Below, piece by piece: positions 26,678 to 43,762 of a stretch of DNA of 64,000 bases (position 1 is its first letter; the number at the start of each line of letters is the position of its first letter). The stretch lies in the IMG/VR virus record IMGVR_UViG_3300024346_000004. One strand, written 5' to 3'. The notes under the pieces are model-generated. The model did not search any database. It saw only the letters and a program-made list of their open reading frames with translations, and was not told the origin of the DNA. The position numbers and the translations under genes were made by a program. Origin of the DNA: a virus (lineage: Duplodnaviria > Caudoviricetes).

Positions 26678-27102
26678 TAATCTTCCCATTTCTTTAGCAT
26701 ATCAATAATTACATGCTCAGGAACATTATGCGTTCTTTTTTGTCTTTCCGCAAGCTCTTTAATAAAATCATCTGAATAATTTGTAGGATCTAAAGTTTCA
26801 AATTTTACTTCATATCCTAATTCTTCAGCAGCATCAATATATTTTTCATATTGCCAACGCTGAACATTAGTATTATCGATTATTACAGGAGAAACACCAT
26901 CCTTCATAGATTGAATGGCTGCTTCTAAATTTTGCTGATGATAATCCTTAATTTTGTCAGGATTAAATTTGTATTCACCTGTATTTGGATCTGTTAAGAA
27001 AGAATCTGTAGAATGAATAACACCCTCTTCTAATAATTCTTTTGCTCTTGTTGATTTACCACTTCCAGGTAAACCTCTCATAATAATTAAAGTTTTATTC
27101 AT
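26677..27102 (-). CDS. P-loop kinase (AAA_33 / N4BP2-like polynucleotide kinase domain)
   Basis: LIIMRGLPGSGKST, STD, VIIDNTN, HNVP. Confidence 0.9.
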   Translation of the reverse strand: MNKTLIIMRGLPGSGKSTRAKELLEEGVIHSTDSFLTDPNTGEYKFNPDKIKDYHQQNLEAAIQSMKDGVSPVIIDNTNVQRWQYEKYIDAAEELGYEVKFETLDPTNYSDDFIKELAERQKRTHNVPEHVIIDMLKKWED

Positions 27103-27104
27103 AA

Positions 27105-27257
27105 TTATTCTTCTCTCTTTTTTGCCATTTTAACAAGCTTGATTATAATATTAACTAGTAAGGCAATTATTGCAACAGGTATTGCTAGCAAAACAATTAA
27201 AATAAAAGGTCCAAAAGGAATTATAAGCCAATGAGCAGTGTTAAGAAAATCTTCCAT
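27105..27257 (-). CDS. Small membrane protein (50 aa, below the ORF-track cutoff)
   Basis: MEDFLNTAHWLIIPFGPFILIVLLAIPVAIIALLVNIIIKLVKMAKKREE exactly fills the operon gap. Confidence 0.7.
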   Translation of the reverse strand: MEDFLNTAHWLIIPFGPFILIVLLAIPVAIIALLVNIIIKLVKMAKKREE

Positions 27258-27258
27258 A

Positions 27259-27471
27259 TTATTCGTCACTACATACTTTCTGTGGCTTGATTTCTAAACT
27301 ATAAGCCACTTTTTCTTCTTCAAAACAATATCTCAAAGCTTCAAGAAATTCTTTTCTATCATTGTAATAAAGGGATTGAAGCATCTTAACCATCTCTTCT
27401 TCTGGCACTTCTGAATCTTCATCAGCAGTAATATCAATATCAAAAGATAAGTTTAATCTGTACTTAGGCAT
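27259..27471 (-). CDS. Hypothetical protein
   Basis: Starts MPKYRL, overlapping the end of the upstream Tad2-like gene. Confidence 0.65.
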   Translation of the reverse strand: MPKYRLNLSFDIDITADEDSEVPEEEMVKMLQSLYYNDRKEFLEALRYCFEEEKVAYSLEIKPQKVCSDE

Positions 27472-27677
27472 TCTACTATTTCCCAATCATCACTCAAAAA
27501 TTCAGTAGCATCAACAACTTTACTAGTCCAAATAAGTCTTCCGCCAAAACCCCACCTTATTTCATTATGTTGATCTAAAACACCAAGCATCTGAAACAAA
27601 TACTCGCCTTTTTTCCAATGAATTCTTCGCACTTGATATCCTTTACGAATTGCTTTAAGTGCTTTTATTCCAGTCAT
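27453..27677 (-). CDS. DUF2829/Tad2-like protein
   Basis: MTGIKALKAIRKGYQVRRIHW..EFLSDDWEIVE. Confidence 0.8.
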   Translation of the reverse strand: MTGIKALKAIRKGYQVRRIHWKKGEYLFQMLGVLDQHNEIRWGFGGRLIWTSKVVDATEFLSDDWEIVECLSTD

Positions 27678-27952
27678 TCTACTATTTGCCAATCATCGTG
27701 TAAGAACTCACCCGCTTCTATCTTATCAAATAATCCAAAGAAATCATCAAAAGTAGTCTTAGTAAATGCAAAACTATTTTGAAATATTTTCTCTATTTCT
27801 TTATCTAAAATTTTATCATCCTGTACTTTTTCCAGATGTATAATCCATTTACCAAAGAAATCTAAGGCTTTACATTTTTCATGAGCTTCCCAGGATGTTC
27901 TTCTTAATGTTTTGCCATCTTTTAAAAGGGACAAAGCTTCGATTCCAGTCAT
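27674..27952 (-). CDS. DUF2829/Tad2-like protein
   Basis: MTGIEALSLLKDGKTLRRTSW..EFLHDDWQIVE. Confidence 0.8.
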   Translation of the reverse strand: MTGIEALSLLKDGKTLRRTSWEAHEKCKALDFFGKWIIHLEKVQDDKILDKEIEKIFQNSFAFTKTTFDDFFGLFDKIEAGEFLHDDWQIVE

Positions 27953-28167
27953 TCTACAACCTCCCAGAAGTCAGACATCAAATCTTTAGGAGTAAGATCT
28001 AGTGTTGAATAAAATTGTGTCCTACATACTTCTCCATCTAAGACTTCGTAGAAATCAAAAGTGTTATCTTCCTTGTCGTAGATTAAGAAAGCAGTAGTAC
28101 TTTCCCAATTGGTCTTACGCACACGCTTGCCAGACATTAATGAGTCAATGACATCAGCAAATTTCAT
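27949..28167 (-). CDS. DUF2829/Tad2-like protein
   Basis: MKFADVIDSLMSGKRVRKTNW..DLMSDFWEVVE. Confidence 0.8.
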   Translation of the reverse strand: MKFADVIDSLMSGKRVRKTNWESTTAFLIYDKEDNTFDFYEVLDGEVCRTQFYSTLDLTPKDLMSDFWEVVE

Positions 28168-28191
28168 TCTACTTCCTCCCAGTCCTGTCAT
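28164..28191 (-). pseudogene. Collapsed Tad2-like paralog (only the first and last codons remain)
   Basis: ATGACAGGACTGGGAGGAAGTAGAATGA reads MTGL in one frame and DWEEVE* in another. Confidence 0.6.
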
Positions 28192-28454
28192 TCTTCATCT
28201 ACCTTTTTGTTAGCGTCAACAATATGGTCTAAATCCCAAGTATCAATATCCCAATCTTCAGCAACAACATCACGGGGTTCTAAATCAAGACCGAATGTCC
28301 CTAATTCATAACCGTTTTCTGAATCATCTGCATAATATACATACACAAAAGAATCTTCTTCTTTGTCATAATACATATATTTGCCATTTTCCCAACCAGT
28401 GCGAGAAATTGGTTTACCTTCCATTAATGAATCAACTACTTCAGAGAATTTCAT
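28188..28454 (-). CDS. DUF2829/Tad2-like protein
   Basis: MKFSEVVDSLMEGKPISRTGW..DVVAEDWDI. Confidence 0.85.
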   Translation of the reverse strand: MKFSEVVDSLMEGKPISRTGWENGKYMYYDKEEDSFVYVYYADDSENGYELGTFGLDLEPRDVVAEDWDIDTWDLDHIVDANKKVDEE

Positions 28455-28669
28455 ATTAAAACATCCCAATCTTCAGCAATAATATCTTCTGGTTTTAAAT
28501 CAAGTCTATAGGTGATAAATTCGTAATCATCTTCTTCGTAATCTTCTTTGATATGATAAGCAAACCAATTTTGTTCTTTATCAAGATACAAAAATTTACC
28601 ATCAGGCCAAACGCTTCTCGATATTGGCTTGTATTGCATCAAAGAATCAATTACTTCAGAGAATTTCAT
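28451..28669 (-). CDS. DUF2829/Tad2-like protein
   Basis: MKFSEVIDSLMQYKPISRSVW..DIIAEDWDV. Confidence 0.85.
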   Translation of the reverse strand: MKFSEVIDSLMQYKPISRSVWPDGKFLYLDKEQNWFAYHIKEDYEEDDYEFITYRLDLKPEDIIAEDWDVLI

Positions 28670-28934
28670 CTACAACTTCCCAATCGTCTTCTAATAAATC
28701 CCCATTATCAATAACATCATAATAACTTACATAGCTGGAAAATTCAGGCTTTTCAGGAACCCATTGTGGAACTAAATGCGTGTCTAAAGCAAATAATATA
28801 GGGTCATCAATATTAATCTTAACAGACTTCATATCATCACTGAAATAAGCCTTACATTTTATATCAGGTTCCCAAGCTTTACGCCTAAGAATATATCCAG
28901 CTCGTAAAAGAGTTAATGCATCAGTTCCATTCAT
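28656..28934 (-). CDS. DUF2829/Tad2-like protein
   Basis: MNGTDALTLLRAGYILRRKAW..DLLEDDWEVVD. Confidence 0.8.
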   Translation of the reverse strand: MNGTDALTLLRAGYILRRKAWEPDIKCKAYFSDDMKSVKINIDDPILFALDTHLVPQWVPEKPEFSSYVSYYDVIDNGDLLEDDWEVVDEIL

Positions 28935-29154
28935 TTTTATTTTTTGTAACAGGCTCAAAACTATAAGAAGCATTAGGATCAAGAATCAATACATCTGCTG
29001 TAACCCAATTAGCCTCGATCAGATTCTCACCAAAAAAACAAGTCTCAAGCTTTTCGTCTAAGATTCTCCACTTAGAAATTCCATTATCATGTTTTTGAAC
29101 GACGATAAACCCCATTTTCAATTTATATGTAACATCAAAAGAAATATTAAACAT
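28921..29154 (-). CDS. Hypothetical protein inside the Tad2-like array, possibly a very divergent member
   Basis: KLKMGFIVV matches only the N-terminal half-pattern. Confidence 0.55.
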   Translation of the reverse strand: MFNISFDVTYKLKMGFIVVQKHDNGISKWRILDEKLETCFFGENLIEANWVTADVLILDPNASYSFEPVTKNKNEWN

Positions 29155-29403
29155 CTAATCCACTAGCTCCCATTCATTTTCAAATATATCACGCAAGAAT
29201 TCTTCTATAATTTCTTGATTATGTAAGTTAGTCCAAGGTGTAGAAGGATTCAAATTTGGAACCCTTGGAAACTCTTCTGACCTAACTGAAAAAGCATATC
29301 CAGAATAATCAGAATAATACAAATACCAATCCTTATTTTCCCAAGCTTTACATCTGATTTTACATCCTTTTTTAATAAATTGCAATGCTTCTAAACCATT
29401 CAT
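29155..29403 (-). CDS. DUF2829/Tad2-like protein
   Basis: MNGLEALQFIKKGCKIRCKAW..DIFENEWELVD. Confidence 0.8.
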   Translation of the reverse strand: MNGLEALQFIKKGCKIRCKAWENKDWYLYYSDYSGYAFSVRSEEFPRVPNLNPSTPWTNLHNQEIIEEFLRDIFENEWELVD

Positions 29404-29660
29404 TGATTTATATAATTCTCAATATTACCTTTGATATCTTTATCCCACAAATAACAAGCATCAAAGCCAAATTCACTATCTTCAAATGTCACCCAAATAA
29501 AATCACCTTTAGGATCAAGACGTACAGATTTAAAATCACCAAAATTTAATTCATCACATACAATTTTAGCAATAGATTCCATATACTTTTGAAACTTAAG
29601 ATAACTGTAAATTCTTCCACGGACAAAATCCTCAGAATAAATAAATTGTTCAGTACTCAT
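29400..29660 (-). CDS. Hypothetical protein
   Basis: 86 aa ORF overlapping both neighbours. Confidence 0.65.
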   Translation of the reverse strand: MSTEQFIYSEDFVRGRIYSYLKFQKYMESIAKIVCDELNFGDFKSVRLDPKGDFIWVTFEDSEFGFDACYLWDKDIKGNIENYINQ

Positions 29661-30348
29661 TTCTATCTTTCATAATCTGATCTTGCATTTCATCAACTTC
29701 AGCTACAACATCAACAACTTCCCAATCGTCTGCTAACAAATCTTCATATTTTATCATTAGTGAATTTGTATACATTCCAATACCCAAGTCAGAATGCCAA
29801 CTCTTACGTCTAATTGTTTTTCCAGCATACATATCATCTAATACATCCTTGAATGTTTTAAAATGAAAAATCTCCCAATCCTCAGCGAATAAATCTTCAG
29901 CAGTGATTTTAACATTAGAATTATCATAGTTATCAGGAGGAAATAAATAAATCTTTGGATTGCCTTCTCTTGTAACGATCTTCCCATGTTTAAGCATATC
30001 AAGAGCCCAATTAATATCTCTTTTCAACCTAATATCATTCTCTTCAGCAAAAGTATCAAAATCACTACCAACGAACTTATTATTAAATTTATTCTTAGGC
30101 ATAGGTAAAATCTTCCAATTATTATAGTTCTTCCAATGATCAAACCTTACAGGAATCAAAAAATCTTGTGTATTTAAATCGTACAGGTAGAAATCTTTAA
30201 ATTTACAAGCGATTACAGAGGATGAATGATTATCTTCACCAAAAGCAAAATATCTTCCAGAGAGTAGAATTCTTTTAGCTTCTTCAAAAGTAAAATTTCT
30301 TCCCTTATAATCTATCTCATTTAAATAACCAAAATATTTCTTTGACAT
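29650..30348 (-). CDS. Tandem multi-domain DUF2829/Tad2-like protein (two clear units and one degenerate)
   Basis: FTFEEAKRILLSG..NWKIL / INWALDMLKHGKIVTR..DLFAEDWEIF / FKDVLDDMYAGKTIRRKSW..DLLADDWEVV. Confidence 0.8.
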   Translation of the reverse strand: MSKKYFGYLNEIDYKGRNFTFEEAKRILLSGRYFAFGEDNHSSSVIACKFKDFYLYDLNTQDFLIPVRFDHWKNYNNWKILPMPKNKFNNKFVGSDFDTFAEENDIRLKRDINWALDMLKHGKIVTREGNPKIYLFPPDNYDNSNVKITAEDLFAEDWEIFHFKTFKDVLDDMYAGKTIRRKSWHSDLGIGMYTNSLMIKYEDLLADDWEVVDVVAEVDEMQDQIMKDRNEY

Positions 30349-30407
30349 TTAAGCCTCATAACATTCTACCACAAAAAAATAAAGGCCTGATTTCTCAAGC
30401 CTTTTTT

Positions 30408-30653
30408 TCACATATTCTTTTTAGCTTCTTGGAGAGCTTCAATAAGTAGATCAAGTTCTTCTTTATCTAAAACAACTAAATCTGAATAAGCAAATCCATC
30501 AAAAAGAATTTTCAATCTTTTCTTCCAATTTAACTTGCCATCATTGAAACCATAATTCCAAAGAGAAATGTCTACAGTTTTGGATTCTGTATCAGGACGT
30601 ATATGTAAAGAATGACATAAACAGTCACAATTAATAATAGTAGTTTTATCCAC
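30408..30653 (-). CDS. Small hypothetical protein with a CxCxxH motif
   Basis: INCDCLCH..NWKKRLK. Confidence 0.7.
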   Translation of the reverse strand: MDKTTIINCDCLCHSLHIRPDTESKTVDISLWNYGFNDGKLNWKKRLKILFDGFAYSDLVVLDKEELDLLIEALQEAKKNM

Positions 30654-31236
30654 TTGTATATCCTATGTTTAACCTACGAATAAGATGAGTGAATCTATAA
30701 TTAAGCACAAGATGATAAAGAAAATAAGCACGTCTACCTAATGAAAAAGCACGGAATTCTTCTTGTGTTTTAAATACCTGAGTTCCATCCTCATATTGAC
30801 TAGGAACTCTAATACCCTCTTTAGCCCAATCTTTCTGCTTATTAAATCTTTTTTCAATTACAGATAAAAGAAACTCCCATTCTTCTTGAGTATATCGTTT
30901 TTCTTTTGGCTCTAAAAACTCATCAAATTCAATCTTCTTGTGAGAAAATGAACTTCTATGAATTACTACATAAATTTCTTGTTTGTTAGCTTTTTCTACA
31001 GGAGGTAAACTAAGATTAAAACCAACATACTTGGATACACAATACTCAGGAGCAGAATGATTTTTTACTCTCATTTGACCTGTTACTAAATCTACTACCT
31101 GATCGATACAATAATGATCATGGAATTCAGGAACAGCATCAGAATCTGTTTCAATCGATTCTACAAATTTAAACTCAGATTTAAACTTTTCTGTACTAGG
31201 AACATATCGCCAAAAAGAATGCCTAAACTTTGACAT
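30646..31236 (-). CDS. Hypothetical protein
   Basis: GGAG SD before MSKFRH. Confidence 0.7.
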   Translation of the reverse strand: MSKFRHSFWRYVPSTEKFKSEFKFVESIETDSDAVPEFHDHYCIDQVVDLVTGQMRVKNHSAPEYCVSKYVGFNLSLPPVEKANKQEIYVVIHRSSFSHKKIEFDEFLEPKEKRYTQEEWEFLLSVIEKRFNKQKDWAKEGIRVPSQYEDGTQVFKTQEEFRAFSLGRRAYFLYHLVLNYRFTHLIRRLNIGYTSG

Positions 31237-31766
31237 TAAATCATCTCCAAAGAATAGGAACAAAGAGAAGACCAATAACTAAGAGCTTTTTCCAAATTAC
31301 TAAGATCAACTTCTTCATCCTTGTACTTCCATAACATTGCTTGAAATACACAATGAAAAGAAAGGTTAAATAAATCTTCCTGGGCTTTTTCAGATAAATC
31401 CCAATAATAAACTGAATGAGGTGGTTTAATCTCTTCAATTAAACAAGACATAAGAATAGCATAATTAGCCAAATCAATTACTGTATCTTCAGCCTTTTCA
31501 GAAATAACCAAATATTCTTTTTCTTTGAGGAAATTTTCAAGGCGGGACATCTTATCACCAATTCTAACTAAACATCCTCGCCAAGCATCAATACCAGCAT
31601 CCTCACACTTGCGCAAATTACCCATAGGAAGACCAGTAGCAGAATAATCATTATCCTTAGCCTCATAAACACTCTGCATGTTATCAAGAATATCTAAAGC
31701 TGTTTCATTAGTAAATTTAGCTTTCATATTACTTATTGTTTGATCATAAAATTTATTTCTTGACAT
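31236..31766 (-). CDS. DUF1599 / nucleotide-modification-associated domain 1 protein
   Basis: AKDNDYS..NL..RIGDKMSRL..DTVIDLANYAIL. Confidence 0.85.
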   Translation of the reverse strand: MSRNKFYDQTISNMKAKFTNETALDILDNMQSVYEAKDNDYSATGLPMGNLRKCEDAGIDAWRGCLVRIGDKMSRLENFLKEKEYLVISEKAEDTVIDLANYAILMSCLIEEIKPPHSVYYWDLSEKAQEDLFNLSFHCVFQAMLWKYKDEEVDLSNLEKALSYWSSLCSYSLEMI

Positions 31767-32220
31767 CTAATACCTCAATACTGTCTGCAAATTGTATCAT
31801 GCACTTTTGAATTTTATCTAATCCCACTTTACCTTGAGAAAAATAAAGATGCCAACTAATAACACAATAAATATCGTCTTCAACACCTTGCGAAATTCCA
31901 TACCAAAATCCATTACTATATATAGGGAACTTTAAATTAGCTTCTTTAGGGAATGAAAGATGAATTATATAAAATAATCTATCTAAATATTTCTTATCTA
32001 CAATGAAAGTAAAATAAGGGATTGAACCTTTTTCTCTTCCTAATAAATGACCCTGACAACTCCAAATAGTCCAAAGCCAACCACTACTATTAATCTTATA
32101 AATAGAATCTTTAATCTTTGGATCTAATTTTACTCTTTGTTTTTTAAGAGATCTAGGATCATACTTCGATGGATGATCTATGTAATTTAAAAAACTAGTT
32201 AAGTTGTCAGGGTTATTCAT
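31753..32220 (-). CDS. TYW3-like fold protein (paralog of 42572..43045)
   Basis: LDPKI..IN..WT..SCQGH..PY. Confidence 0.6.
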   Translation of the reverse strand: MNNPDNLTSFLNYIDHPSKYDPRSLKKQRVKLDPKIKDSIYKINSSGWLWTIWSCQGHLLGREKGSIPYFTFIVDKKYLDRLFYIIHLSFPKEANLKFPIYSNGFWYGISQGVEDDIYCVISWHLYFSQGKVGLDKIQKCMIQFADSIEVLDVKK

Positions 32221-32221
32221 G

Positions 32222-33202
32222 TTATCTCTTAGGTGGTAATGAATTTTGCTTTACTTCAAAAACACCATTACCAACAAAATCACCAAGCGTTTTATATCCA
32301 CTGTACGAAACTGCTGAAGATAGCCCACCCCAAAGCTCATCTACAAGAACTTCAAGAGGACGCAATTCATCAACAATAGCTACTTCTTTACCCTCAGAAT
32401 GACGATATACTTTACCAGTGGAGAGAATCTGTTGCTTATGAGATGCACCACCCCAATAGTTTCCGTCTCCTCTTAAATGAGTTTCTGCTTCAAACGCTCT
32501 AGCAAAATACCCACCCATCATAACATAATCCGCTCCAGCACCAAATGCCTTAGCAGCATATCCAGCATTCTTAATACCACCGTCAGCAATTACAAATGGA
32601 CCTGAATCATAAGTATATTCTTCAATTTCCATGATTTCAGTAATTGGACCACGATTGTATCCAGTAGAATCATTAGTAGCACAAGGACTTCCACCAGCAA
32701 TACCTACACGAATATATTTATCATGCTTGGAATTTAATTTAATTTTTGAAAGCAACTCAAATCCAAGAGCTGAATGAACATTACCCAACATTAAATCATA
32801 CACTGGAGCAATCTGTTCTAGCTTTTCAGTACATTCAGTAATTTCTTTGTGCATATAACCATTAGCCATATCAATTAGCCATTTATCAGCACCACAATCT
32901 TTTAATGCCTTGACCCTATCCCAATCATTCAAACCGATAGATACAAATACATTAGCTTTATTAGGTAAAGAATTATAAAGCTCAACCTGCTCCTCAATAG
33001 AACAAAAACGATGAAGACAAACTGTAAGACCAAGCTCATTAGCCTTTAGAGCAAATGTTTTACCAACAATAGCTTCCATAGGAGAAACTATGATTCTATT
33101 TAACTCTACAGGAATATCTTTACGAGACTTAACTTTACAAGGTTGAGCTACAAGATTTACATCATTATAATAAATAGACTTAGACTTGAGAATTTCTGCC
33201 AT
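32222..33202 (-). CDS. guaC: GMP reductase / IMPDH family protein
   Basis: IDMANGY, GNV, RVGIAGGSPCAT, IADGGI, GADYVMMG; no CBS domains. Confidence 0.85.
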   Translation of the reverse strand: MAEILKSKSIYYNDVNLVAQPCKVKSRKDIPVELNRIIVSPMEAIVGKTFALKANELGLTVCLHRFCSIEEQVELYNSLPNKANVFVSIGLNDWDRVKALKDCGADKWLIDMANGYMHKEITECTEKLEQIAPVYDLMLGNVHSALGFELLSKIKLNSKHDKYIRVGIAGGSPCATNDSTGYNRGPITEIMEIEEYTYDSGPFVIADGGIKNAGYAAKAFGAGADYVMMGGYFARAFEAETHLRGDGNYWGGASHKQQILSTGKVYRHSEGKEVAIVDELRPLEVLVDELWGGLSSAVSYSGYKTLGDFVGNGVFEVKQNSLPPKR

Positions 33203-33779
33203 TTTTCTTACTTTCAATTACACAATCAATAACACCATACGTTTTGGCTTCTTCCGCACTCATGTAATAATCTCTATCACAGTCTTTAGCAATCTGCTTC
33301 TTCGTTTTACCAGTGGAGAGAGAAAGAATATCGAATAATTGATCTTCCAACTTATTTGTCTCATTAACCTGAATACGAATGTCAGCAGATGTACCACGAA
33401 AACCAGAAGATACCTGATGAATCATAATACGAGAATGAGGCAAAGCAGATCGAGTACCAGTACCACCAGCTAAAAGAATAGCTCCCATACTAGCTGCCAT
33501 ACCTACACAAGTGGTATTAACAGGAGCAGAAATTGTATTAATAACATCATACAAAGCTAATCCCGCACTAACACTACCACCAGGACTATTAATATAAAAC
33601 TCAATCGGTCTATGACTATCTTCCTTGTCTAAAAATAACATCTGAGCGATAATCAAATTAATAATATAATCATCTACCTCTTGCCCTAAAAAGATAATTC
33701 GGTCTTTAAGTAATCTAGACCAAATATCATAAGCACGTTCACCGGTAGATGATTTTTCTAATACTGTAGGAATAATCAT
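33180..33779 (-). CDS. clpP: ATP-dependent Clp protease proteolytic subunit
   Basis: DIWSRLLKDRIIFL, INSPGG, GMAASMG, IMIHQ, DRDYYMSAEEA. Confidence 0.97.
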   Translation of the reverse strand: MIIPTVLEKSSTGERAYDIWSRLLKDRIIFLGQEVDDYIINLIIAQMLFLDKEDSHRPIEFYINSPGGSVSAGLALYDVINTISAPVNTTCVGMAASMGAILLAGGTGTRSALPHSRIMIHQVSSGFRGTSADIRIQVNETNKLEDQLFDILSLSTGKTKKQIAKDCDRDYYMSAEEAKTYGVIDCVIESKKNGRNSQV

Positions 33780-33848
33780 AAACCTATTTTACCACACACA
33801 AAAAAAGAGAGGCATAAAATACCTCTCTTCCTTAAGTAAAATTATGAT

Positions 33849-34340
33849 TTACTTAATTTTAATTTTCTTTACTGTTTCTTTAAGCTCTTCTTCTTTAAAA
33901 ACAATCTTCTTAAAAGCTAATTTAAGAATACCAGCTTCTAAATGACAAACTTCAGGGTCAAGCTCAAGATTGTCTGGTAATTGAATTGTTCTTGTAAAAG
34001 CAGATTGCTTCAATTCTTTAAGATGATAGAAATAACTCTTCTCTCTAAGGATTCTTGAATTTCCAGTGATTGTTAAAAGCTTAGTTTCTTTGACAACTTC
34101 AATGTCAAGATCTTTTTCTTCAACACCGGGTACAGCAAAGTCCAAACAGAAATAAGAATCATCTTCAAAGATATCCATTTTTGGATAAGAAGTGTTGGAA
34201 TGAATAAAGTTTTTACGATTACCTAAAAAATCGTCAAAAAACTTGTTGATAATCTGTTCATGTTGATCCATGATCACATTACGATTGGGCATTAAAATTC
34301 TACGCTGAGGTAGATTCAATACATCATCAATACTAGCCAT
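33849..34340 (-). CDS. Small heat-shock protein (Hsp20/alpha-crystallin)
   Basis: YPKMDI..AVPG..FTRTIQLP..GILKL; GGAG SD before MASID. Confidence 0.9.
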   Translation of the reverse strand: MASIDDVLNLPQRRILMPNRNVIMDQHEQIINKFFDDFLGNRKNFIHSNTSYPKMDIFEDDSYFCLDFAVPGVEEKDLDIEVVKETKLLTITGNSRILREKSYFYHLKELKQSAFTRTIQLPDNLELDPEVCHLEAGILKLAFKKIVFKEEELKETVKKIKIK

Positions 34341-34445
34341 ATAATTCTCCATTTGCGCCCATAAGGTACGCTCTAAAATAGGTGTCTAAAAGATCACCTT
34401 GGTTAATAACCTATATATATAATACAACAAATAACAAGATTTTAT

Positions 34446-34709
34446 TCACCAAGAACCCAAATGCTTAGTAATTACACCATCAGGATTTCTACTAATACTC
34501 GCAACCCACTCACTACCATCAAACACCATAGGAAAATAAACCCTACCCTTAGTCCAAAGAGTAAATGGCTCTCCCTCAATAGAACCATATGTATCATCAA
34601 ATAAATAATCTAACCACTTACCATCATCTGGAACATAACTAACTACATCTTCCCATTTCTCATTATATTCAGACATACAATAAACTATCAAATCTCTCCA
34701 TCTAACCAT
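34446..34709 (-). CDS. Hypothetical phage protein
   Basis: FDDTYGSIEGEPFTLWT..VYFP..DGSEWVASISRNP. Confidence 0.75.
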   Translation of the reverse strand: MVRWRDLIVYCMSEYNEKWEDVVSYVPDDGKWLDYLFDDTYGSIEGEPFTLWTKGRVYFPMVFDGSEWVASISRNPDGVITKHLGSW

Positions 34710-34756
34710 AACACACCCCCAAGGATAATATACCTTTTATAAATAAATTAAAGATT

Positions 34757-37132
34757 ATGAACAGATATAGCCAGATGCAAAATAAACTAGTAAATCTACA
34801 CACGATGATTCAAGGTTTTGATTTCCAAATTAGAGACCTTAATATATCTCAAGAACAAAAAGAAATTGCTAAACAAACAATAAGAAAAATAGAAGATAAA
34901 TTATCACAAGCAAAATATGTATTCTCTATATCAAGCCAGGTATCTATTCATCATATATTACTAGACGGTATTGCTAACCCAGAACAAGAAATAACAGACC
35001 TACTATCCCCAGATGAATTGTCAGCAGCATTATTACTAGATATTAATAAAATGGGTATAACTGACCTAATAACACAAAAATATAATCCTAGAGAAACATA
35101 CACGAATAATAAAATACAAGATGCAAAAAAATTAACATTAGAATTCTTTAATCACATAAAAGAAATAAATAAAGGCAAAGAAAAATATCTACCTGAATTC
35201 CTTATCCTAGCATCTACATTAACAAAAGATATAAACGAAAAATATACAGAAGAAAATAAAAACCACATATTCTTCAACTCACCAATAATACCAGAATTGT
35301 TTAACGTATTACAAGAACAAAATTTATCTGGAGCAAGTGTACCAGAAGATATGGGATACCTAATCAAAACAGCTAAAACACTAAACACCGATACAAAAGA
35401 AATATGGGAAAATCCTTACAGCCCTTACTATAACACAAGACCATATACCGCTGTTCACTTCTTTGGAGCTAATATAAAAGATAATAATTTCTCATTTAAC
35501 AAAGAAAGAAAAAAATATGTGCTCGATAACTTAAAAGCACCTGTACCCCTAAAAGAAATTAAAGATAAATTAATCCGCCAAGGAATAAATTACCCAGATC
35601 TACAACCAGATGAAAAACAAATAAAAGAATATACTGCTAGAATAAAAAAAGAAACACTGAGAAGCACACTAACAACATCACAACATTTAGACGAAATTAT
35701 AAATGTCATTAAAGATGGACAAGTGAAAAAAATAGCTGTAAGAGACCTAATAAGAACATCAACACCCAAAGCTACAGAAGAAGCTATAGCTATGGACAAA
35801 TTAATAAAAGAATTAAAACCAGAAGATATAAAAGATCAAACATTCTTCAAAATGTATTATAACTATACTAAACCATATTTTAATGCTAAAAACTTCATCA
35901 GCTTACAAAATCTATACCTAGAAAATAAAAATCAAATACCTATAAGAGATATTAATATAATATACCCAGATACAAAAAACGATAAAGTATACACAGCTAA
36001 ATTATTACCTAAAAATAATCCTACATATCTCTTTGCTGGAAATATAACCGACTGCTGCCAAAAAATAAATGGAGAAGCTGAATCCGTGGTTTGGGACACT
36101 GCACAAAATATGGACTCCTGGATATTCGCTATCTTCGACGACTCTAATAAAATAATCGTGCAATCCTATATATGGAAATCTGAAGATACATACACAATAG
36201 ACAGCATAGAATCACAAATAAAAACTGTAGCTGAAGACAATATAATATTACAAGACTTCTTTAAAATACATCTAGCAAATATATATAAACAATTTGCAGC
36301 AGAATTAGGTGACCTCGTATTTATAGGAAATAATAATACACCAGCTACAAATATTAAAACATTATCACCAAAAGTATACGAAAGAGAATTCAAAAACCAA
36401 ACCGGAATATATAAAGGCGACTCAAGTAAGAAAAAACTATTCCATATGGACTATTCTAGTATAAACCTAAACGATAAACCAGATAACACAAAAGATAAAG
36501 AATTGTACCTATATAAATTATTCGCCGCATTTAGAAATTCAAATTATCAACAAGGCAAATATATATATGAACTAGGTAAAACTAAAACTGACTTTACAAG
36601 CATGGATCGAATTACACTAGAAATAGATCTATTCCAAAAAGCACTTAAAGAAGAATTCAATACAGAACAATTAAAACAAACAGACCTCTACCAAAACTTT
36701 ACACCTAACGCTGACCAAAAAATATATGATGAAATTATGAGATTGATTATAAATGACATAGAAACAAATTATCTATATGAACTAATCAACCTATATATAA
36801 GAACAGACGCAAAACAAAGATTACTTAAAATATTACGAGAATGCTTTGAATGGGGTCAAGAAAATCAAATATCCACTAATATCAAAACTAAATATCAAGA
36901 CATAATACAAGATCCAAAAATAACAATATATCAATACCTAAAAGATAATAATATCAAATACGTAGCAACATCAGGAAATATACACATACTCGATACAAGA
37001 CCAATAACACTAAGCCAAAGAATACTAGACATAGCTTACTTTAATAAAATCAATATCACACAAAGATCCGGCGACATAGAAAACCCAATAGAACATAAAA
37101 AAATATTACCTAACAAAATAGAAATAGAATAA
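34757..37132 (+). CDS. Large protein with a CCQ domain (paralog of 16731..20477)
   Basis: YTAKLL..AGNITDCCQ..QSYIW..IDSIE; AAGG-N19-TAAATT upstream; extreme A/C-ending codons. Confidence 0.8.
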   Translation: MNRYSQMQNKLVNLHTMIQGFDFQIRDLNISQEQKEIAKQTIRKIEDKLSQAKYVFSISSQVSIHHILLDGIANPEQEITDLLSPDELSAALLLDINKMGITDLITQKYNPRETYTNNKIQDAKKLTLEFFNHIKEINKGKEKYLPEFLILASTLTKDINEKYTEENKNHIFFNSPIIPELFNVLQEQNLSGASVPEDMGYLIKTAKTLNTDTKEIWENPYSPYYNTRPYTAVHFFGANIKDNNFSFNKERKKYVLDNLKAPVPLKEIKDKLIRQGINYPDLQPDEKQIKEYTARIKKETLRSTLTTSQHLDEIINVIKDGQVKKIAVRDLIRTSTPKATEEAIAMDKLIKELKPEDIKDQTFFKMYYNYTKPYFNAKNFISLQNLYLENKNQIPIRDINIIYPDTKNDKVYTAKLLPKNNPTYLFAGNITDCCQKINGEAESVVWDTAQNMDSWIFAIFDDSNKIIVQSYIWKSEDTYTIDSIESQIKTVAEDNIILQDFFKIHLANIYKQFAAELGDLVFIGNNNTPATNIKTLSPKVYEREFKNQTGIYKGDSSKKKLFHMDYSSINLNDKPDNTKDKELYLYKLFAAFRNSNYQQGKYIYELGKTKTDFTSMDRITLEIDLFQKALKEEFNTEQLKQTDLYQNFTPNADQKIYDEIMRLIINDIETNYLYELINLYIRTDAKQRLLKILRECFEWGQENQISTNIKTKYQDIIQDPKITIYQYLKDNNIKYVATSGNIHILDTRPITLSQRILDIAYFNKINITQRSGDIENPIEHKKILPNKIEIE

Positions 37133-38606
37133 AACAATAACACCCCTACATAAAAATATAGGGGTGTTTCTTTTTTAATACCACTAACAAAAACATATAG
37201 ATAAAATAAACATCACTGAGAAGAATAATACATCCAAAAAATAACCTGAAATCTTTACAATAGAGCAATAAAATATACCAAAGAATACAAATACCCTAAA
37301 CGAATAAAATGTTGCTAGAGATACCCCTTTTTTATACTTAACACCTATAATTACCCCCGTAGTATAAATGAAATAATAAAAAATCACATAAGGAAATATA
37401 ACAAGAGACCGTAAACGAAATATAATAAAAAAATTATACAGATTAGCTTTAGGATTAGAAAGGAGCTGGGAAGTATGAAAAATAAGATAATTAGACTAAA
37501 CGTAAAAATATAATTCTTATATAGGATAATTAATAAAATTACAGTGGATAGTAAATGACATAGATAACCCAAATTCAAAATACTATATAGAAAAAAAGAA
37601 TAAAAATAAAAATCACAATGGAGACTGAGTGGAGACTAAAACCCAATTACATAAGAAAGAAACAAAATAACCCATATAACAAAAAACAAAAATTCGAGCA
37701 ATTACAATATAACAATAATTAATTTCCCTATATAAGAAAATAAAAGAAATTCACTTGGTTCTCTACTAATAACAATAAAACACATTACTACTAACTAATC
37801 ACATAGGAAACGATTGATAATAGCTATTGATACATTTTAGCTTATGAGGATAAAGATTTTCGAGTGATTATAAGATTTTCGAGCAATTATAAGAGAAGAA
37901 TAAATAATTACATATAAGGGAGAATATTTAATTTACTATATAGAAGAAATACAAATTAACCTATATGAGAAAAAGAATATTCTAAAAGATTATATTTATT
38001 ACCTAAGAACGAATAATAACTAATAGACAATAAAATAAAATCTATCCAATACTACAAAACAAAAAACAATATACTACAAATGAAGAAAAAAAAATAAATT
38101 AATACAATAGAGAAAAAACAAATAATAGAATAAATAAGAACAAATAAATATCTATGAAATAATACAATAATAACGAATAAGTGGCTTTTTAATACGGGAC
38201 GGTTAATCAGCACACATTCAAACGTCAAACAATAATCGACAGTTAAACTATAAAATTAACTGTAATTGTTAACATTCTGTGTAGCTTCAAATAATTCCTC
38301 TAAGCTTTATGTATATTTCCGAACCTATTCTTCAATACTTACTTATATGTTGTTCCGCCTTATGTTTATTTTTATTTACGTTCGATTAAAATATCCACTA
38401 ATCTTATAGAATTTCGAAGCTAAATCATAAGCCCTATTCTTCTTCTATATATTTTTGTATTCTTTTAATGTCCCTTATTATATATTATTATTTCTACACT
38501 GTATATTCTAGATACCTGCTAGACATATTTTGTATAATATTGTTACCTATGTAGAAGTGTCTATATATGTATTCTATCCTAATTTGTTTTATACCTGCAA
38601 CTTTTT
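37133..38606. other. Non-coding strand-skew switch: putative replication origin or genome-end junction
   Basis: A-rich left half and T-rich right half; gene polarity inverts here; central hairpin at 38228-38270; 19-bp tandem repeats near 37853-37893. Confidence 0.65.
37853..37893 (+). repeat. Iteron-like tandem repeat AAGATTTTCGAG(TG/CA)ATTAT x2
   Basis: 19-bp period; related copy AATTCGAGCAATTAC at 37691. Confidence 0.75.
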
Positions 38607-39173
38607 ATGTTAACCGGCAATATCCATTCTTATATTTCGAGTTCTTTTGTTAATGGTCCTGGAAATCGTTTTGTATTATGGTTTCAGGGTTGTTCTAAAG
38701 GTTGTCTCGGTTGTTTTAATCCTGAGACTTGGAACGATAGACCTGTTTCTCTTTATACTGTTCAAAGTTTAATTACCATAATAGAAAAGATTAATCCTAC
38801 TGGCATTACTATTTCTGGTGGTGATCCTTTCGAGCAATCTGAATTCCTATTAGAATTATTAAAAGAGTTATATAAGAAAGATTATAAGGATGGGATTATT
38901 GTATTTTCTGGTTTTACTATAGATGAGATTAATAGTGATAATACTATGAGGGATTGTTTAAATTATCTAGACGTTTTGATAGACGGTAGATTTGTTAAGG
39001 ATTGTATAACTAAAGATGGTTTAAGAGGCAGTAGTAATCAGAATATAATTTATTTTTCGAGTAAGGTTAAAGATCTTTTAATTGATCAAGAAGTAGAAGT
39101 AGGTTTTGATTACGTTACTGGTTTTCCTCTTATAAATAGTGAATTAATAAAGTTAGGAATTCGAGTAAAGTGA
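38607..39173 (+). CDS. Radical SAM protein, anaerobic RNR activase (NrdG)-like
   Basis: NGPGNRFVLWFQGCSKGCLGC, ISGGDP, DVLIDGRF, RGSSNQ. Confidence 0.88.
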   Translation: MLTGNIHSYISSSFVNGPGNRFVLWFQGCSKGCLGCFNPETWNDRPVSLYTVQSLITIIEKINPTGITISGGDPFEQSEFLLELLKELYKKDYKDGIIVFSGFTIDEINSDNTMRDCLNYLDVLIDGRFVKDCITKDGLRGSSNQNIIYFSSKVKDLLIDQEVEVGFDYVTGFPLINSELIKLGIRVK

Positions 39174-39745
39174 CTGAAACAAGTAAGAGTTATAATTTAA
39201 GAATTAGAGAGTGTCATTTCGAGAAGTATTTAAATGGTAAGGGAATTGATATTGGTTCTGGTCCTGATCCTTTAGTAGTATTAGATGGCACTGTTAAGAG
39301 TTATGATTTTAAGCAGGGTGATGCGAATTTTATGGAAGATCAGAAAGACAACATTTATGATTTTGTTTATTCGAGTCATTGTTTAGAGCATATGAAGAGT
39401 GTTAGAACAAGTTTATTTAATTGGTGTAGAATTTTAAAGCCTGGTGGATATTTATATATTACAATTCCAGATTTCGAGTTATATGAGAAATGTAATTGGC
39501 CGAGTAATTTTAATCTAGATCACAAATTTTCTTTTTCGAGTAATTATAAGAGAAGTGATGTTAATAGAATTAATCATTATAATATCTCCGAGGATTTAGA
39601 GCCGTTATTAAATTCGTATAATGTTAATCTAATAGAAGCTGTATTACAAGATGAAGGTTATGATTATTCTTTACCAGCTAAGATAGATCAAACTTTAAAT
39701 GGTGCTTTGGTGCAGATTAATATTATTGGACAAAAAAGATTATAA
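39170..39745 (+). CDS. Class I SAM-dependent methyltransferase
   Basis: GIDIGSG, YDFVYSSHCLEH, RILKPGGYL. Confidence 0.9.
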   Translation: MTETSKSYNLRIRECHFEKYLNGKGIDIGSGPDPLVVLDGTVKSYDFKQGDANFMEDQKDNIYDFVYSSHCLEHMKSVRTSLFNWCRILKPGGYLYITIPDFELYEKCNWPSNFNLDHKFSFSSNYKRSDVNRINHYNISEDLEPLLNSYNVNLIEAVLQDEGYDYSLPAKIDQTLNGALVQINIIGQKRL

Positions 39746-39755
39746 GGGGGATAAT

Positions 39756-40253
39756 ATGGGTAGATTAAAGAAAGTTGTTGAAGAGACTACTGTAGAAGCT
39801 GTGGAAGTTTTCGAAGATGTTGAAACTGTAGAAAACGTAGAAGTAATGGAAGATACAGTAGAAGCGTTAAGGGAGCCTGTTAATATTAGTACAGGTGAGT
39901 TTTATGCTGTTTTCGAGGATGATAGATTAATTGGATATGCTAGGGAAAATTCGAGTAGTTTAGCAAGATATCAAGAATCTAATTATAATGAGTTAAGTGA
40001 TATGTTAGAGAGATATAGTATTCCTTTCGAGAATGAGAAGGATATTTTATTTGCTAACCTTGGATCTGATGCTAATTTATATCAATCATGGGCACAGTAT
40101 CAGCATCAAACGGGAGTAGCGCCTTCTGTTCCACCTATTGTTAACTTACTAGGGTATCACGGTAAGAGACTTAATATCCAGGATCCAGAAGAAATTGTTG
40201 TTAGATCACATGCTTTTAAATATGTGTTCCAGGTTATTGAAGAACTTGATTAA
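39756..40253 (+). CDS. Hypothetical protein with a Glu/Val-rich N-terminus
   Basis: GGGGG SD before MGRLKK. Confidence 0.7.
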   Translation: MGRLKKVVEETTVEAVEVFEDVETVENVEVMEDTVEALREPVNISTGEFYAVFEDDRLIGYARENSSSLARYQESNYNELSDMLERYSIPFENEKDILFANLGSDANLYQSWAQYQHQTGVAPSVPPIVNLLGYHGKRLNIQDPEEIVVRSHAFKYVFQVIEELD

Positions 40254-40263
40254 TATAGTAGAG

Positions 40264-40470
40264 ATGACTGTTTATAGTTATAGTATTAAATTAAAATACT
40301 ATAACTATACTAATGAGTTTTTCGAGTATTTAAAAGGTAAAGAAGATAAGAATGATATTTATGATTTGCGATTTGATAACCATACAATATTTTTCTTTTC
40401 GAAGAGTAAATATACCGGCAATAAATTAATTCAAGAATTCGAGAAGAACAAATTAGAAGACATGGTATAA
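40264..40470 (+). CDS. Hypothetical protein
   Basis: Start reassigned to MTVYSY. Confidence 0.55.
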   Translation: MTVYSYSIKLKYYNYTNEFFEYLKGKEDKNDIYDLRFDNHTIFFFSKSKYTGNKLIQEFEKNKLEDMV

Positions 40471-40478
40471 TGTGTTAG

Positions 40479-40934
40479 ATGAAGCCAGATTATTTAGAAC
40501 ATAGAAATTATTTGGTTAATTATCTTTCTCTTATTTCGAGGGATAGATTATTAGCTGAAGATTTAGTTCAAAGTGTTTTAATTAATTATTGGATTAATAA
40601 ACCTGTAGTAAATAATGTTCGAGGTTATCTTAAAATGATGGCTAAAAACTCTTATATAGATTATTACAGGATTAAGAAACTTAGCATTGTAGATTTAGAG
40701 CAAGCTTATCTTATAAATAATGATGTAAATATTTCGAGAGAAGTGGAAGCTAAGGAAACGTTAAGATCTTTAAAAATCGAGATTGAAAAATTCGAGTCTA
40801 TAGATCGTGATATAATGTTATGTTTGTTAGAGGGATATAGTCTTAACGAAATAGCTGTTAATATGAATCTTAATTATAATACAGTTAAGGTTAAAGTATT
40901 TCGAGCTAGGAAGAAGTTAAGTGCTATATTATAA
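40479..40934 (+). CDS. ECF-type (group 4) RNA polymerase sigma factor
   Basis: Region 2 AEDLVQ..AKNSYIDYYR; region 4 GYSLNEIA..NTVKVKVFRARKKL. Confidence 0.88.
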   Translation: MKPDYLEHRNYLVNYLSLISRDRLLAEDLVQSVLINYWINKPVVNNVRGYLKMMAKNSYIDYYRIKKLSIVDLEQAYLINNDVNISREVEAKETLRSLKIEIEKFESIDRDIMLCLLEGYSLNEIAVNMNLNYNTVKVKVFRARKKLSAIL

Positions 40935-40945
40935 AAGGAAAAAAT

Positions 40946-41398
40946 ATGAAGATCTTTTTATCTATTGCAGCTTTATTGGCTGTTTCTAATTGTTATGCTT
41001 TAGAGTATGGTCCAGCAGCTCCACCTAAGGCACAATCATTTTTTGTCAAGCCTGGTTTTAAGGACGGCAAGATTCAGAGTGTTTCCATGGGTGTATCTTT
41101 AGATGGCCGAAACAGTAATGCTCTTCTTGTTACTAATCTTGATTCTTACAAGGTTTTTAATCGTACAGTAGAAACCGTAGCTACCGTTAGTACAGATCGC
41201 TATGGTAATAAGGCTGCTGTTGGTGCTGGTCTATTACTTCCATTAGGTGAGCATTTCGGTGTATCTCTTAAAGCTGGGGCCTATTTCGAAGGTACAGATT
41301 TAGCTGATAAGGGTCGTATTAGTAATCGTGTCGTTCCCGCAGTTACATGTAGAATCGATTTGAATAAGACACTATCCGTATTAGGTGTTCGTCTCTAA
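40946..41398 (+). CDS. Exported beta-rich protein (possible outer-membrane protein)
   Basis: Signal peptide MKIFLSIAALLAVSNCYA; amphipathic strands; ends SVLGVRL. Confidence 0.6.
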   Translation: MKIFLSIAALLAVSNCYALEYGPAAPPKAQSFFVKPGFKDGKIQSVSMGVSLDGRNSNALLVTNLDSYKVFNRTVETVATVSTDRYGNKAAVGAGLLLPLGEHFGVSLKAGAYFEGTDLADKGRISNRVVPAVTCRIDLNKTLSVLGVRL

Positions 41399-41432
41399 AG
41401 TGTAACCGTACTTAATCTGGAAATTATTATAT

Positions 41433-43045: not shown

Positions 43046-43047
43046 AT

Positions 43048-43075
43048 ATATTATCATATGCTACATAGGATGCAA
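43048..43075 (-). promoter_or_regulatory. Inverted copy of the early sigma70 promoter family
   Basis: Minus strand TTGCAT-cctatgtagcatatga-TAATAT. Confidence 0.65.
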
Positions 43076-43191
43076 TATAATCCCTAATTTATTTTAGGGA
43101 TTTTTTGTTTTAATCCACAAGCCTAACCTCCAGTGTAACATAATAGAAATTTAGTGTTGCTAGTGTTATAGTAAATGTGATATATTAGGGC

Positions 43192-43730: not shown

Positions 43731-43762
43731 TCTTTGTTGGTGATTTTGATTAGGAGAATAAA

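What the first reader, a model, noticed from the sequence alone, without database searches (positions are those of the whole stretch)
34400..41000. Sharp strand-composition switch whose skew intensifies toward a 1.5-kb non-coding core
Seen: the plus strand is extremely A/C-rich from about 34.4 to 37.4 kb, even inside a plus-strand gene, and T/G-rich after 38.6 kb. The core is A-rich then T-rich around the hairpin AACAAT..ACAGTTAA-N9-TTAACTGT.ATTGTT (38228-38270). Bulk gene direction diverges here, and by eye the bias fades with distance. Inference: a bidirectional origin, or the joined ends of a linear genome, with prolonged single-strandedness nearby.
Basis: partly seen in the sequence, partly recalled or inferred. 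Interest (0 to 1): 0.7.

Follow-up and report, generated by a model that had tools for sequence, protein, structure and literature searches.

The report
Hairpin-centred strand-composition switch in jumbo phage
In an uncultured giant phage the base make-up of the two DNA strands flips exactly at a small conserved hairpin between two blocks of genes that point away from each other. This looks most like a local start point of DNA unwinding (a replication origin fired next to early promoters), but that has not been shown.

Summary
The largest step in G+T content in the 166-kb record (0.213, about 6 sd) falls at window 38260, inside the hairpin 38228-38270. The cumulative GC-skew minimum is at 38638.

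At four-fold degenerate sites the plus-strand AT skew ramps from about 0 (20-23 kb) to +0.49, flips to -0.52, and returns to 0 by 42.5 kb. The 791-aa plus-strand gene (A4 0.61, T4 0.25) mirrors its minus-strand neighbours (T4 0.60-0.64). The bias therefore belongs to the strand, not to gene direction or codon choice.

Outside these arms the strand-level component is about 0, so there is no genome-wide replichore skew.

A distant relative (NrdG-like protein 49% identical) has the same switch at its own 13-nt inverted repeat. It also has the same one-strand TTCGAG array starting there.

Best reading (about 0.4): a local origin or unwinding centre, perhaps transcription-primed as at T4 origins. 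Transcription-only asymmetry (about 0.3) is not excluded. Joined linear ends are unlikely, because at least six assemblies read through the site and the sign of the skew is wrong for resected ends. Recent substitutions do not show an ongoing bias.

The parts
25963..34709 (-). Left arm: 20 minus-strand genes (Tad2-like array, IMPDH-like dehydrogenase, ClpP-like protease, Hsp20, 87-aa protein). Their coding (outward) strand is T- and G-enriched at synonymous sites.
   Evidence: T4 0.60 against 0.46-0.48 genome-wide. AT4 skew is -0.26 in the distal half and -0.42 in the proximal half. GC3 skew is mostly +0.2 to +0.6. Families.
34757..37132 (+). 791-aa gene in the 'wrong' orientation. Its coding strand is A- and C-rich, mirroring its neighbours. 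The protein has a central GNAT-like domain with an invariant G-x4-CCQ motif.
   Evidence: A4 0.61, T4 0.25, GC3 skew -0.63, AT3 skew +0.37. It is a real gene: homologues of 775-793 aa, dN/dS 0.27-0.47. No Pfam or PHROG hit. 239 remote hits to residues about 375-520. The model has pLDDT 80 and gives weak but consistent GNAT matches.
37139..37168 (.). G+C-rich hairpin with T-runs on both strands, just after the 791-aa gene. It looks like a two-way intrinsic terminator.
   Evidence: 13-pair stem reported on the minus strand. The plus-strand T-run is visible in the sequence. Conserved in relatives with compensatory variation.
37133..38227 (.). A-rich non-coding half of the core. It holds three plus-strand TTCGAG copies (37693, 37859, 37878), a 19-nt tandem repeat (37853-37890) and a conserved CACAATGGAGACT...GGAGACT block (about 37615-37640).
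   Evidence: AT skew +0.30 to +0.42, GC content 18-27%. Repeats. One 19-mer copy is deleted in L009, and the GGAGAC block is kept in L012 and L021. The short minus-strand ORFs at 37184-37578 are probably spurious, because the alignment with L012 has indels that are not multiples of 3.
38228..38270 (.). Inverted repeat (6+8-nt arms, 9-nt loop) at the exact switch point.
   Evidence: It is the best-conserved non-coding block in the 58%-identity relative L012, with one compensatory G-C to A-T change and one disruptive change. The switch maps to the same hairpin in L009 and L012, and about 40 nt from an unrelated 13-nt inverted repeat with a 9-nt loop in L021.
38271..38606 (.). T-rich non-coding half of the core, presumably carrying the rightward early promoter or promoters.
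   Evidence: AT skew -0.15 to -0.24. 94% identical in L009. Sigma-70-like matches occur only at background frequency.
38607..41398 (+). Right arm: NrdG-like radical-SAM activase, class-I methyltransferase, acidic 184-aa protein, 91-aa ORF, ECF-type sigma factor, signal-peptide protein.
   Evidence: T4 0.61, A4 0.24, GC4 skew +0.48 for 38607-40934. The skew is gone by 42.5 kb. Families.
37693..40905 (+). Dense one-strand array of WTTCGAG: 21 copies, none on the other strand. The 18 copies inside the right-arm genes use all three reading frames. The array ends where the strong GC skew ends.
Evidence: 18 observed against 0.4 expected in 38607-40934 (p about 7e-24). 45 plus against 7 minus in 166 kb, and 43 of the 45 lie right of 37693. 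Information is confined to W-TTCGAG. Conserved among strains, but positions turn over against L021.

Best explanation
The hairpin at 38228-38270 marks a local centre from which DNA is opened outward in both directions. It is most likely an origin of replication placed in the divergent early-promoter region, and possibly primed by transcription (R-loop) as at phage T4 oriF/oriG.

On each side, the strand that runs 5'-to-3' away from the hairpin is the one left unpaired. It could be the displaced or non-template strand of an R-loop, or the lagging-strand template of an outward fork. Over evolutionary time that strand has become T- and G-rich at neutral sites, whatever the direction of the genes it crosses.

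The effect would be strongest next to the centre and would fade with distance if only origin-fired forks have a fixed polarity and the rest of replication is recombination-driven with forks running both ways. That would explain why there is no genome-wide skew.

Shown: the composition pattern, its independence from gene direction, its exact position on the hairpin, and its conservation.

Inferred: single-strandedness as the cause, and origin function.
For: - Sharp switch at the hairpin, which is the largest keto step in 166 kb, and the global cumulative GC-skew minimum.
- Strand-level effect, not gene-level. The 791-aa plus-strand gene has A4 0.61 / T4 0.25, against T4 0.60-0.64 on the coding strand of its minus-strand neighbours. 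Its AT4 skew of +0.41 lies outside the range of the 81 scored genes (at least 60 four-fold sites) outside 25963-40934 (max +0.23). Decomposition of the left arm gives strand components R(GC) = -0.49 and R(AT) = +0.30, with small gene-direction components.
- In L021, wrong-orientation ORFs on both sides of the switch obey the same strand rule.
- Graded ramp of AT4 skew over about 14 kb on the left, followed by a flip.
- The non-coding core shows the same asymmetry, so codon usage cannot explain it.
- Origin-like anatomy: an A+T-rich stretch (18% GC), direct repeats, an inverted repeat, and flanking genes co-oriented with outward forks.
- Conserved in the 58% relative L012 and in a lineage whose NrdG-like protein is only 49% identical (L021, and the 129-kb record G001), where the site is again the cumulative GC-skew minimum.
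- The sign fits a lagging-strand template, a displaced strand or a non-template strand (inference from established skew models).
- T4 origins combine a promoter, an A+T-rich unwinding element and a persistent R-loop that leaves the non-template strand single-stranded (PMC3016281).
Against: - No genome-scale strand component outside the arms: R is about 0 in five other regions of two records.
- No DnaA-box cluster and no significant iteron enrichment.
- No replication gene lies next to the site. The adjacent 791-aa protein is GNAT-like, not an initiator.
- Polarised substitutions among strains do not show the expected ongoing bias. On the left plus strand, C>T is 43 against T>C 34, and A>G is 39 against G>A 18. 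Numbers are small and parsimony is biased.
- The left arm is about 14 kb here but only about 2.3 kb in L021. It ends where the early-looking genes end, which fits transcription units as well.
- The excess is mainly T over A, which simple cytosine deamination does not fully explain.
- Both records are fragments. G001 is about 36% complete by CheckV, and a 262-kb contig carries the 791-aa gene.
Confidence: 0.4

Rival explanations
1. Transcription only. The core is simply the divergent early-promoter region. Very heavy outward transcription keeps the non-template strand unpaired, or early mRNAs are selected to be U/G-rich and C-poor. This gives the same sign of skew without any origin function. 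Leftward transcripts would have to run antisense through the 791-aa gene.
For: - The arms coincide with plausible early units. The right arm ends after the sigma-factor gene at about 40.9-41.5 kb, near a terminator-like hairpin at 41467-41495.
- The left arm ends near the convergent junction at 25516/25520.
- The left arm length differs between lineages in step with gene content.
- rIIA and rIIB lie in the right block, and anti-defence-like genes lie in the left block.
- There is no genome-wide strand skew.
Against: - Three wrong-orientation genes in two lineages carry the strand's bias, not their own coding-strand bias.
- A terminator-like hairpin at 37139-37168 also reads as a terminator for leftward transcription and lies between the core and the 791-aa gene.
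- The ramp appears to start inside plus-strand genes at 23.6-25.5 kb.
- Promoter-like matches are at background level.
- The rest of the genome shows almost no transcription-linked skew at third positions.
Confidence: 0.3
2. Selected polarity track. The T/G-rich outward strand and the one-strand WTTCGAG array are maintained by selection for a strand-reading machine, rather than by mutation bias. The machine could be a Chi-like signal for a host RecBCD/AddAB-type nuclease, a translocase, or a phage early factor. The core would be the boundary of an early 'polar domain' of about 33-41 kb.
For: - The WTTCGAG array starts at the core, is 43:0 for one strand to the right, and uses all three reading frames.
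- It keeps its density and orientation while positions turn over between lineages.
- The same layout is seen in G001: a core, a 3-kb dense array, a GATC-poor block of about 27 kb, and a second TTCGAG cluster.
- Recent substitutions tend to erode rather than build the skew.
Against: - The skew is mirror-symmetric about the hairpin, but the hexamer is only on the right.
- The hexamer accounts for only about 18 of the roughly 260 excess G over C in the right arm (my arithmetic).
- No reader protein has been identified.
- No known Chi sequence resembles TTCGAG or CTCGAA (from memory).
Confidence: 0.15
3. Joined ends or packaging site. The core is where the physical ends of a linear genome, or a short terminal repeat or pac/cos site, were joined by the assembler. 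The skew would then reflect end-initiated strand displacement.
For: - Transcription points inward from both 'ends', as in end-replicating linear genomes (general knowledge).
- The sign fits strand displacement from ends (inference).
- The contig of the 58% relative L012 stops about 35 nt after the hairpin.
Against: - At least six independent assemblies of the close lineage and two of a distant lineage read through with the same sequence.
- Contig ends of eight other assemblies cluster at 34162-34510, not at the hairpin.
- No terminal overlap in the 166-kb record, and IMG/VR classes G001 as linear without end repeats.
- Resected or incompletely replicated ends would expose the 3'-ended strand, which gives the opposite sign (inference).
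- Protein-primed replication is unknown in jumbo myoviruses, and phage G-type relatives package by headful (from memory).
Confidence: 0.08

Closest known systems
[quoted passage not shown]
   Same: - A non-coding, A+T-rich element next to early or middle promoters.
- The outward non-template strand is expected to be single-stranded.
- Origin firing followed by recombination-dependent replication would leave only a local polarity.
   Different: - The T4 minimal origins are about 100 bp, and I know of no report of a multi-kb compositional sawtooth around them.
- Here no promoter, R-loop or initiation has been shown.
- This locus has a central inverted repeat and divergent arms.
GC-skew-defined origins of bacterial chromosomes and of huge phages (about 30% of huge-phage genomes show bidirectional skew; PMC7162821)
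   Same: - Sign change of GC and keto skew at a non-coding site.
- Genes co-oriented away from it.
- Cumulative-skew minimum at the site.
   Different: - The strand-level skew here is very strong (four-fold AT skew about 0.5) but confined to roughly 18 kb.
- Third-position strand components are about 0 elsewhere.
- No DnaA boxes.
Vertebrate mitochondrial strand-displacement gradient (neutral-site skew proportional to time spent single-stranded; from memory)
   Same: Graded neutral-site asymmetry that grows toward a defined point and ignores gene direction. The exposed strand becomes G/T-rich.
   Different: - Here the pattern is two-sided and short-range.
- It is dominated by T over A.
- There is no evidence that the replication mode is strand displacement.
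Chi / KOPS-type skewed oligomers (short one-strand motifs co-oriented with replication; from memory)
   Same: WTTCGAG is short (7 informative positions), strongly over-represented, restricted to one strand, and independent of reading frame.
   Different: - It is clustered in a 3-kb array plus a domain of about 40 kb on one side only.
- The sequence is unlike known G-rich Chi or KOPS motifs.
- The reader protein is unknown.

Membership tests
Skew-defined bidirectional replication origin | Sign change of GC/keto skew at the site, at a cumulative-skew extremum | tested here: met
   Cumulative GC-skew minimum at 38638. Keto minimum and largest step at 38260. The same holds in G001, L009, L012 and L021.
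Skew-defined bidirectional replication origin | Replichore-scale strand skew that is independent of gene orientation | tested here: not met
   The strand component at third positions is -0.04 to +0.04 for GC and -0.08 to +0.04 for AT in five regions outside the arms. A sixth region rests on only 2 kb of minus-strand genes. In the left arm the values are -0.49 and +0.30.
Skew-defined bidirectional replication origin | Cluster of initiator sites (DnaA boxes or iterons) | tested here: not met
   DnaA box with up to 1 mismatch: 22 matches against 24 expected, with no cluster. The A-rich 14-mer motif gives 54 against 41 expected. Only a 19-nt tandem pair plus one more copy was found.
T4-type R-loop origin | A+T-rich unwinding element downstream of a promoter | tested here: inconclusive
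   An A+T-rich stretch is present (18% GC at 37900-38199). Promoter-like sites are at background frequency (44 against 44.2). The host and its promoter type are unknown.
T4-type R-loop origin | Persistent RNA-DNA hybrid that primes leading-strand synthesis | not testable with these tools
   Needs infected cells (DRIP, S1 or KMnO4 footprinting, 2D gels).
Physical genome termini / terminal-repeat junction | Assemblies or reads end at the site, or a terminal repeat is present | tested here: not met
   Read through by the window, L007, L015-L018, L021 and L022. Contig ends cluster at 34162-34510 instead. No end overlap in the record. Read-level data were not available.
Protein-primed linear replicon (phi29/PRD1/adenovirus type) | Long inverted terminal repeats, terminal protein and a family-B polymerase | tested here: inconclusive
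   Only a 14-nt inverted repeat lies at the switch, and longer inverted pairs are 70-74% A/T-rich matches. The polymerase gene was not found in the 166-kb fragment, but only a subset of ORFs was scanned.
Chi-like polar motif (for WTTCGAG) | Short, over-represented, strand-oriented oligomer | tested here: met
   18 against 0.4 expected. 43:0 to the right of the core. Information is limited to W-TTCGAG.
Chi-like polar motif (for WTTCGAG) | Recognition by the host RecBCD/AddAB, and skewed over-representation in the host chromosome | not tested

The most novel reading that the evidence does not exclude
A clade of uncultured jumbo phages carries a conserved 'polarity centre'. This would be a hairpin-marked origin whose long-lived outward strand displacement leaves a mitochondrion-like, distance-graded mutational footprint over several kilobases. 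From the same point a Chi-like one-strand heptamer (WTTCGAG) array extends over the roughly 33-41 kb early domain. Replication start, early transcription and protection of early DNA would then all be organised from one point.
Probability: 0.2. Interest if true: 0.75.

Novelty: new variant of a known kind. Interest (0 to 1): 0.58.

Why it matters
Origins of replication are essentially unknown for uncultured jumbo phages. They are usually guessed from genome-wide GC skew.

This locus shows a different signature. The asymmetry is very strong, short-range, graded, and independent of gene direction. It is pinned to a hairpin and conserved between lineages whose proteins are only 24-49% identical.

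If it marks an origin, it gives a sequence-level way to locate origins in phages that lack replichore-scale skew. It would also provide a natural record of how long DNA near an origin stays single-stranded.

If it is purely transcriptional, it would be an unusually strong case of transcription-linked strand bias that overrides the coding strand of embedded genes.

Either way it defines the left boundary of the early domain that carries the TTCGAG array and the GATC-poor block.

Tried and rejected
- **RNA genes.** Rfam (E-value mode) and tRNA scans of the core gave only chance-level hits or none.
- **Promoters.** The sigma-70 promoter scan is at background.
- **DnaA boxes.** No enrichment.
- **Iterons.** The A-rich 'CTATATAGAAA' motif that looks repeated by eye is not significantly enriched (54 against 41), so I do not call it an iteron array.
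- **Ongoing mutation bias.** I polarised substitutions among four close strains with L009 as outgroup. There were 220 changes on the left and 49 on the right. The spectrum does not support an active deamination-type bias and, if anything, erodes the skew. Parsimony bias and small numbers make this inconclusive.
- **Is the non-coding core unusually conserved?** No. The A-rich half is the most variable stretch against L009 (72-73% identity). Only the hairpin and the T-rich half are well kept.
- **Searches for more relatives.** The 791-aa protein and a sigma-factor alignment found nothing in viral contigs. There was no DNA match in cultured phages. The NrdG-like protein found only distant cultured hits. 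The 34 other NrdG-like loci lack the feature and served as negative controls.
- **791-aa protein as an initiator.** Rejected. It has no Pfam, PHROG or PDB sequence match, and its central domain folds like a GNAT.
- **Recent inversion of the 791-aa gene.** Rejected, because no gene elsewhere has such a coding-strand composition.
- **Misassembly.** Rejected on the many concordant assemblies.
- **Literature.** A search for TTCGAG in phages found only primers.
Full report
**What the DNA is**

The window is bases 84646-148645 of a single 165,921-bp virus record with 32.6% GC. The record is a fragment. The same 791-aa gene sits on a 262-kb metagenome contig. A distant relative's 129-kb record is rated 36% complete. 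Earlier notes of this scan call it an uncultured jumbo phage distantly related to Bacillus phage G; I did not test that.

**Checking the observation**

- The plus strand is A/C-rich from 34.6 to 37.3 kb.
- The 1.0-1.5-kb non-coding core is A-rich, then T-rich.
- The plus strand is strongly G-rich from 38.8 to 40.9 kb.

The cumulative GC-skew minimum of the whole record is at 38638. The change-point in G+T content is at 38260, inside the hairpin 38228-38270. It is the largest 1-kb step in the record: 0.213, against a step sd of 0.033 and a next-largest value of 0.107.

Gene calling by longest non-overlapping ORFs gives 21 minus-strand genes to the left (25520-34709) and 29 plus-strand genes to the right (38607-56043). 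The largest non-coding gap lies between them.

**The key result: the bias belongs to the strand, not to the genes**

At four-fold degenerate sites the genome average on coding strands is A 0.38, T 0.46. Against that background:

| Genes | Strand | A4 | T4 |
|---|---|---|---|
| Left arm, 25963-34709 | minus | 0.29 | 0.60 (0.64 in the half nearest the core) |
| Right arm, 38607-40934 | plus | 0.24 | 0.61 |
| 791-aa gene, 34757-37132 | plus | 0.61 | 0.25 |

- The 791-aa gene is thus the mirror image of its neighbours. Its GC3 skew is -0.63, and its AT4 skew of +0.41 is beyond the range of the 81 scored genes (at least 60 four-fold sites) outside 25963-40934 (maximum +0.23).
- It is a real gene. 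Nineteen homologues of 775-793 aa keep the frame, one of them at 58% identity, and dN/dS is 0.27-0.47.
- I split third-position skew into a strand component and a gene-direction component. In the left arm the strand components are -0.49 (GC) and +0.30 (AT). In five other regions of two records they are about 0.
- In 1.5-kb bins, the plus-strand AT skew at four-fold sites climbs from 0.00 at 20 kb through +0.18, +0.26, +0.31, +0.35 and +0.45 to +0.49. It then flips to -0.52, -0.39 and -0.19, and reaches 0 by 42.5 kb. Bins outside the region have sd 0.14.
- The pattern is therefore a local sawtooth with a long left ramp and a short right one, and there is no replichore-scale skew.

**Conservation**

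- Close strains (91-98.5% identical) and a 58%-identity relative (L012) keep the composition and the hairpin. L012 shows one compensatory and one disruptive change in the stem.
- A far more distant lineage (L021/L022) has an NrdG-like protein 49% identical, and acidic, lipoprotein-like and sigma-factor homologues 41%, 44% and 24% identical. It has the same layout: a 1.07-kb non-coding gap, an A/C-rich then G/T-rich switch, and an unrelated 13-nt inverted repeat with a 9-nt loop within about 40 nt of the switch. ORFs of the 'wrong' direction on both sides of its switch follow the strand rule.
- In its 129-kb record the switch is again the cumulative GC-skew minimum.
- Thirty-four other loci with NrdG-like genes lack all of this.

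**A second polar feature starts at the same place**

- The hexamer TTCGAG occurs 45 times on the plus strand and 7 times on the minus strand of the record. Of the 45, 43 lie right of 37693.
- Twenty-one lie in 37693-40905. Of these, 18 are in the right-arm genes, against 0.4 expected, and they use all three reading frames.
- Only W-TTCGAG carries information.
- The distant lineage has the same hexamer in the same arrangement: 19 copies in 3.3 kb, and 48 against 2 over 22 kb. Positions have mostly turned over, so density and orientation are what is kept.
- The dense array ends where the strong GC skew ends (about 40.9 kb). It explains only a small part of that skew, and it has no mirror copy on the left.
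- To the right follows the GATC/AGCT-poor block, 42581-71631 here and about 12-39 kb in the relative's record oriented like the window.

**How it most likely works**

The strand that runs 5'-to-3' away from the hairpin is T/G-rich on both sides. Three situations give that sign:
- the lagging-strand template of outward forks;
- the displaced strand of an R-loop or D-loop;
- the non-template strand of outward transcription.

Resected or incompletely replicated DNA ends would give the opposite sign, because they expose the 3'-ended strand (inference).

The site has an A+T-rich stretch, short direct repeats and an inverted repeat, and it lies between diverging, early-looking operons. Phage T4 origins are of this kind: a promoter, an A+T-rich unwinding element and a persistent R-loop that leaves the non-template strand single-stranded. 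They are followed by recombination-dependent replication, whose forks have no fixed polarity (PMC3016281).

That combination would give a strong local footprint and no genome-wide one, which is what is seen. I therefore favour a local origin or unwinding centre, at about 0.4.

**Why I am not more confident**

- The arm ends coincide with plausible transcription-unit ends.
- The left arm is much shorter in the distant lineage.
- No initiator sites or replication genes are nearby. The 791-aa protein has a GNAT-like domain.
- Polarised substitutions among strains do not show the expected active bias.
- The T-over-A excess is larger than cytosine deamination alone would produce.
- A transcription-only origin of the skew (0.3) needs antisense transcription through the embedded genes and past a terminator-like hairpin. 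This cannot be excluded without RNA data.
- A selected 'polarity track' (0.15) and a terminus or pac site (0.08) remain possible.

**Comparison with what is known**

Locating origins by GC skew is routine, including in huge phages (PMC7162821). What differs here is that the strand asymmetry is intense, graded and short-range, overrides gene direction, and is pinned to a hairpin. It also coincides with the start of a conserved one-strand heptamer array. I class it as a new variant of a known kind.

Noticed in passing
whole record G000 and relative G001: The tetranucleotide CGCG is completely absent from both the 166-kb record (39 expected from a second-order model) and the 129-kb relative (29 expected). 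GCGC occurs 53 and 44 times. This suggests avoidance of a CGCG-specific restriction enzyme.
   Followed up: partly
window 34162-34510: Contigs from eight independent assemblies (L008-L011, L013, L014, L018-L020) end within this 350-nt stretch, at the hsp20 start and the 87-aa gene. Others read through with no sequence difference. This is probably a mosaic boundary between co-occurring strains, not a terminus.
   Followed up: partly
window 34757-37132: The central domain of the 791-aa protein (residues about 375-520, invariant G-x4-CCQ...D..E) recurs in 239 multi-domain proteins. It has no Pfam family and models as a GNAT-like fold.
   Followed up: partly
window 67605-68193; G001 (oriented like the window) 24-28.5 kb: A second dense TTCGAG cluster lies about 30 kb right of the core, with six copies in 600 nt. 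Several sit in the loops of short hairpins (for example AACACC-GTTCGAGA-GGTGTT). The distant relative has a matching cluster of about 19 copies 18-22 kb from its core.
   Followed up: no
window 42581-71631; G001 (oriented like the window) about 12-39 kb: The GATC/AGCT-poor block starts about 4-6 kb right of the switch, not at it. The TTCGAG-dense right arm has normal GATC density (4.4 per kb). The block has a similar length (27-29 kb) in both lineages.
   Followed up: partly
window 37853-37890: A 19-nt tandem repeat (AAGATTTTCGAGYRATTAT, two copies) varies in copy number among strains, with one copy in L009. The 58% relative L012 has seven TTCGAG-containing copies spread over about 900 nt left of its hairpin.
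   Followed up: partly
L056 (IMG/VR 3300045988_127377), around 9000-13000: An unrelated phage contig shows another one-strand hexamer next to its NrdG-like gene: AATGCA 20 times against 1.5 expected, with 1 on the other strand.
   Followed up: no
L032, L034, L037 (three IMG/VR records): Three records of another phage lineage all end exactly 4060 nt downstream of their NrdG-like gene. This may be a fixed terminus or a recurrent assembly break.
   Followed up: no
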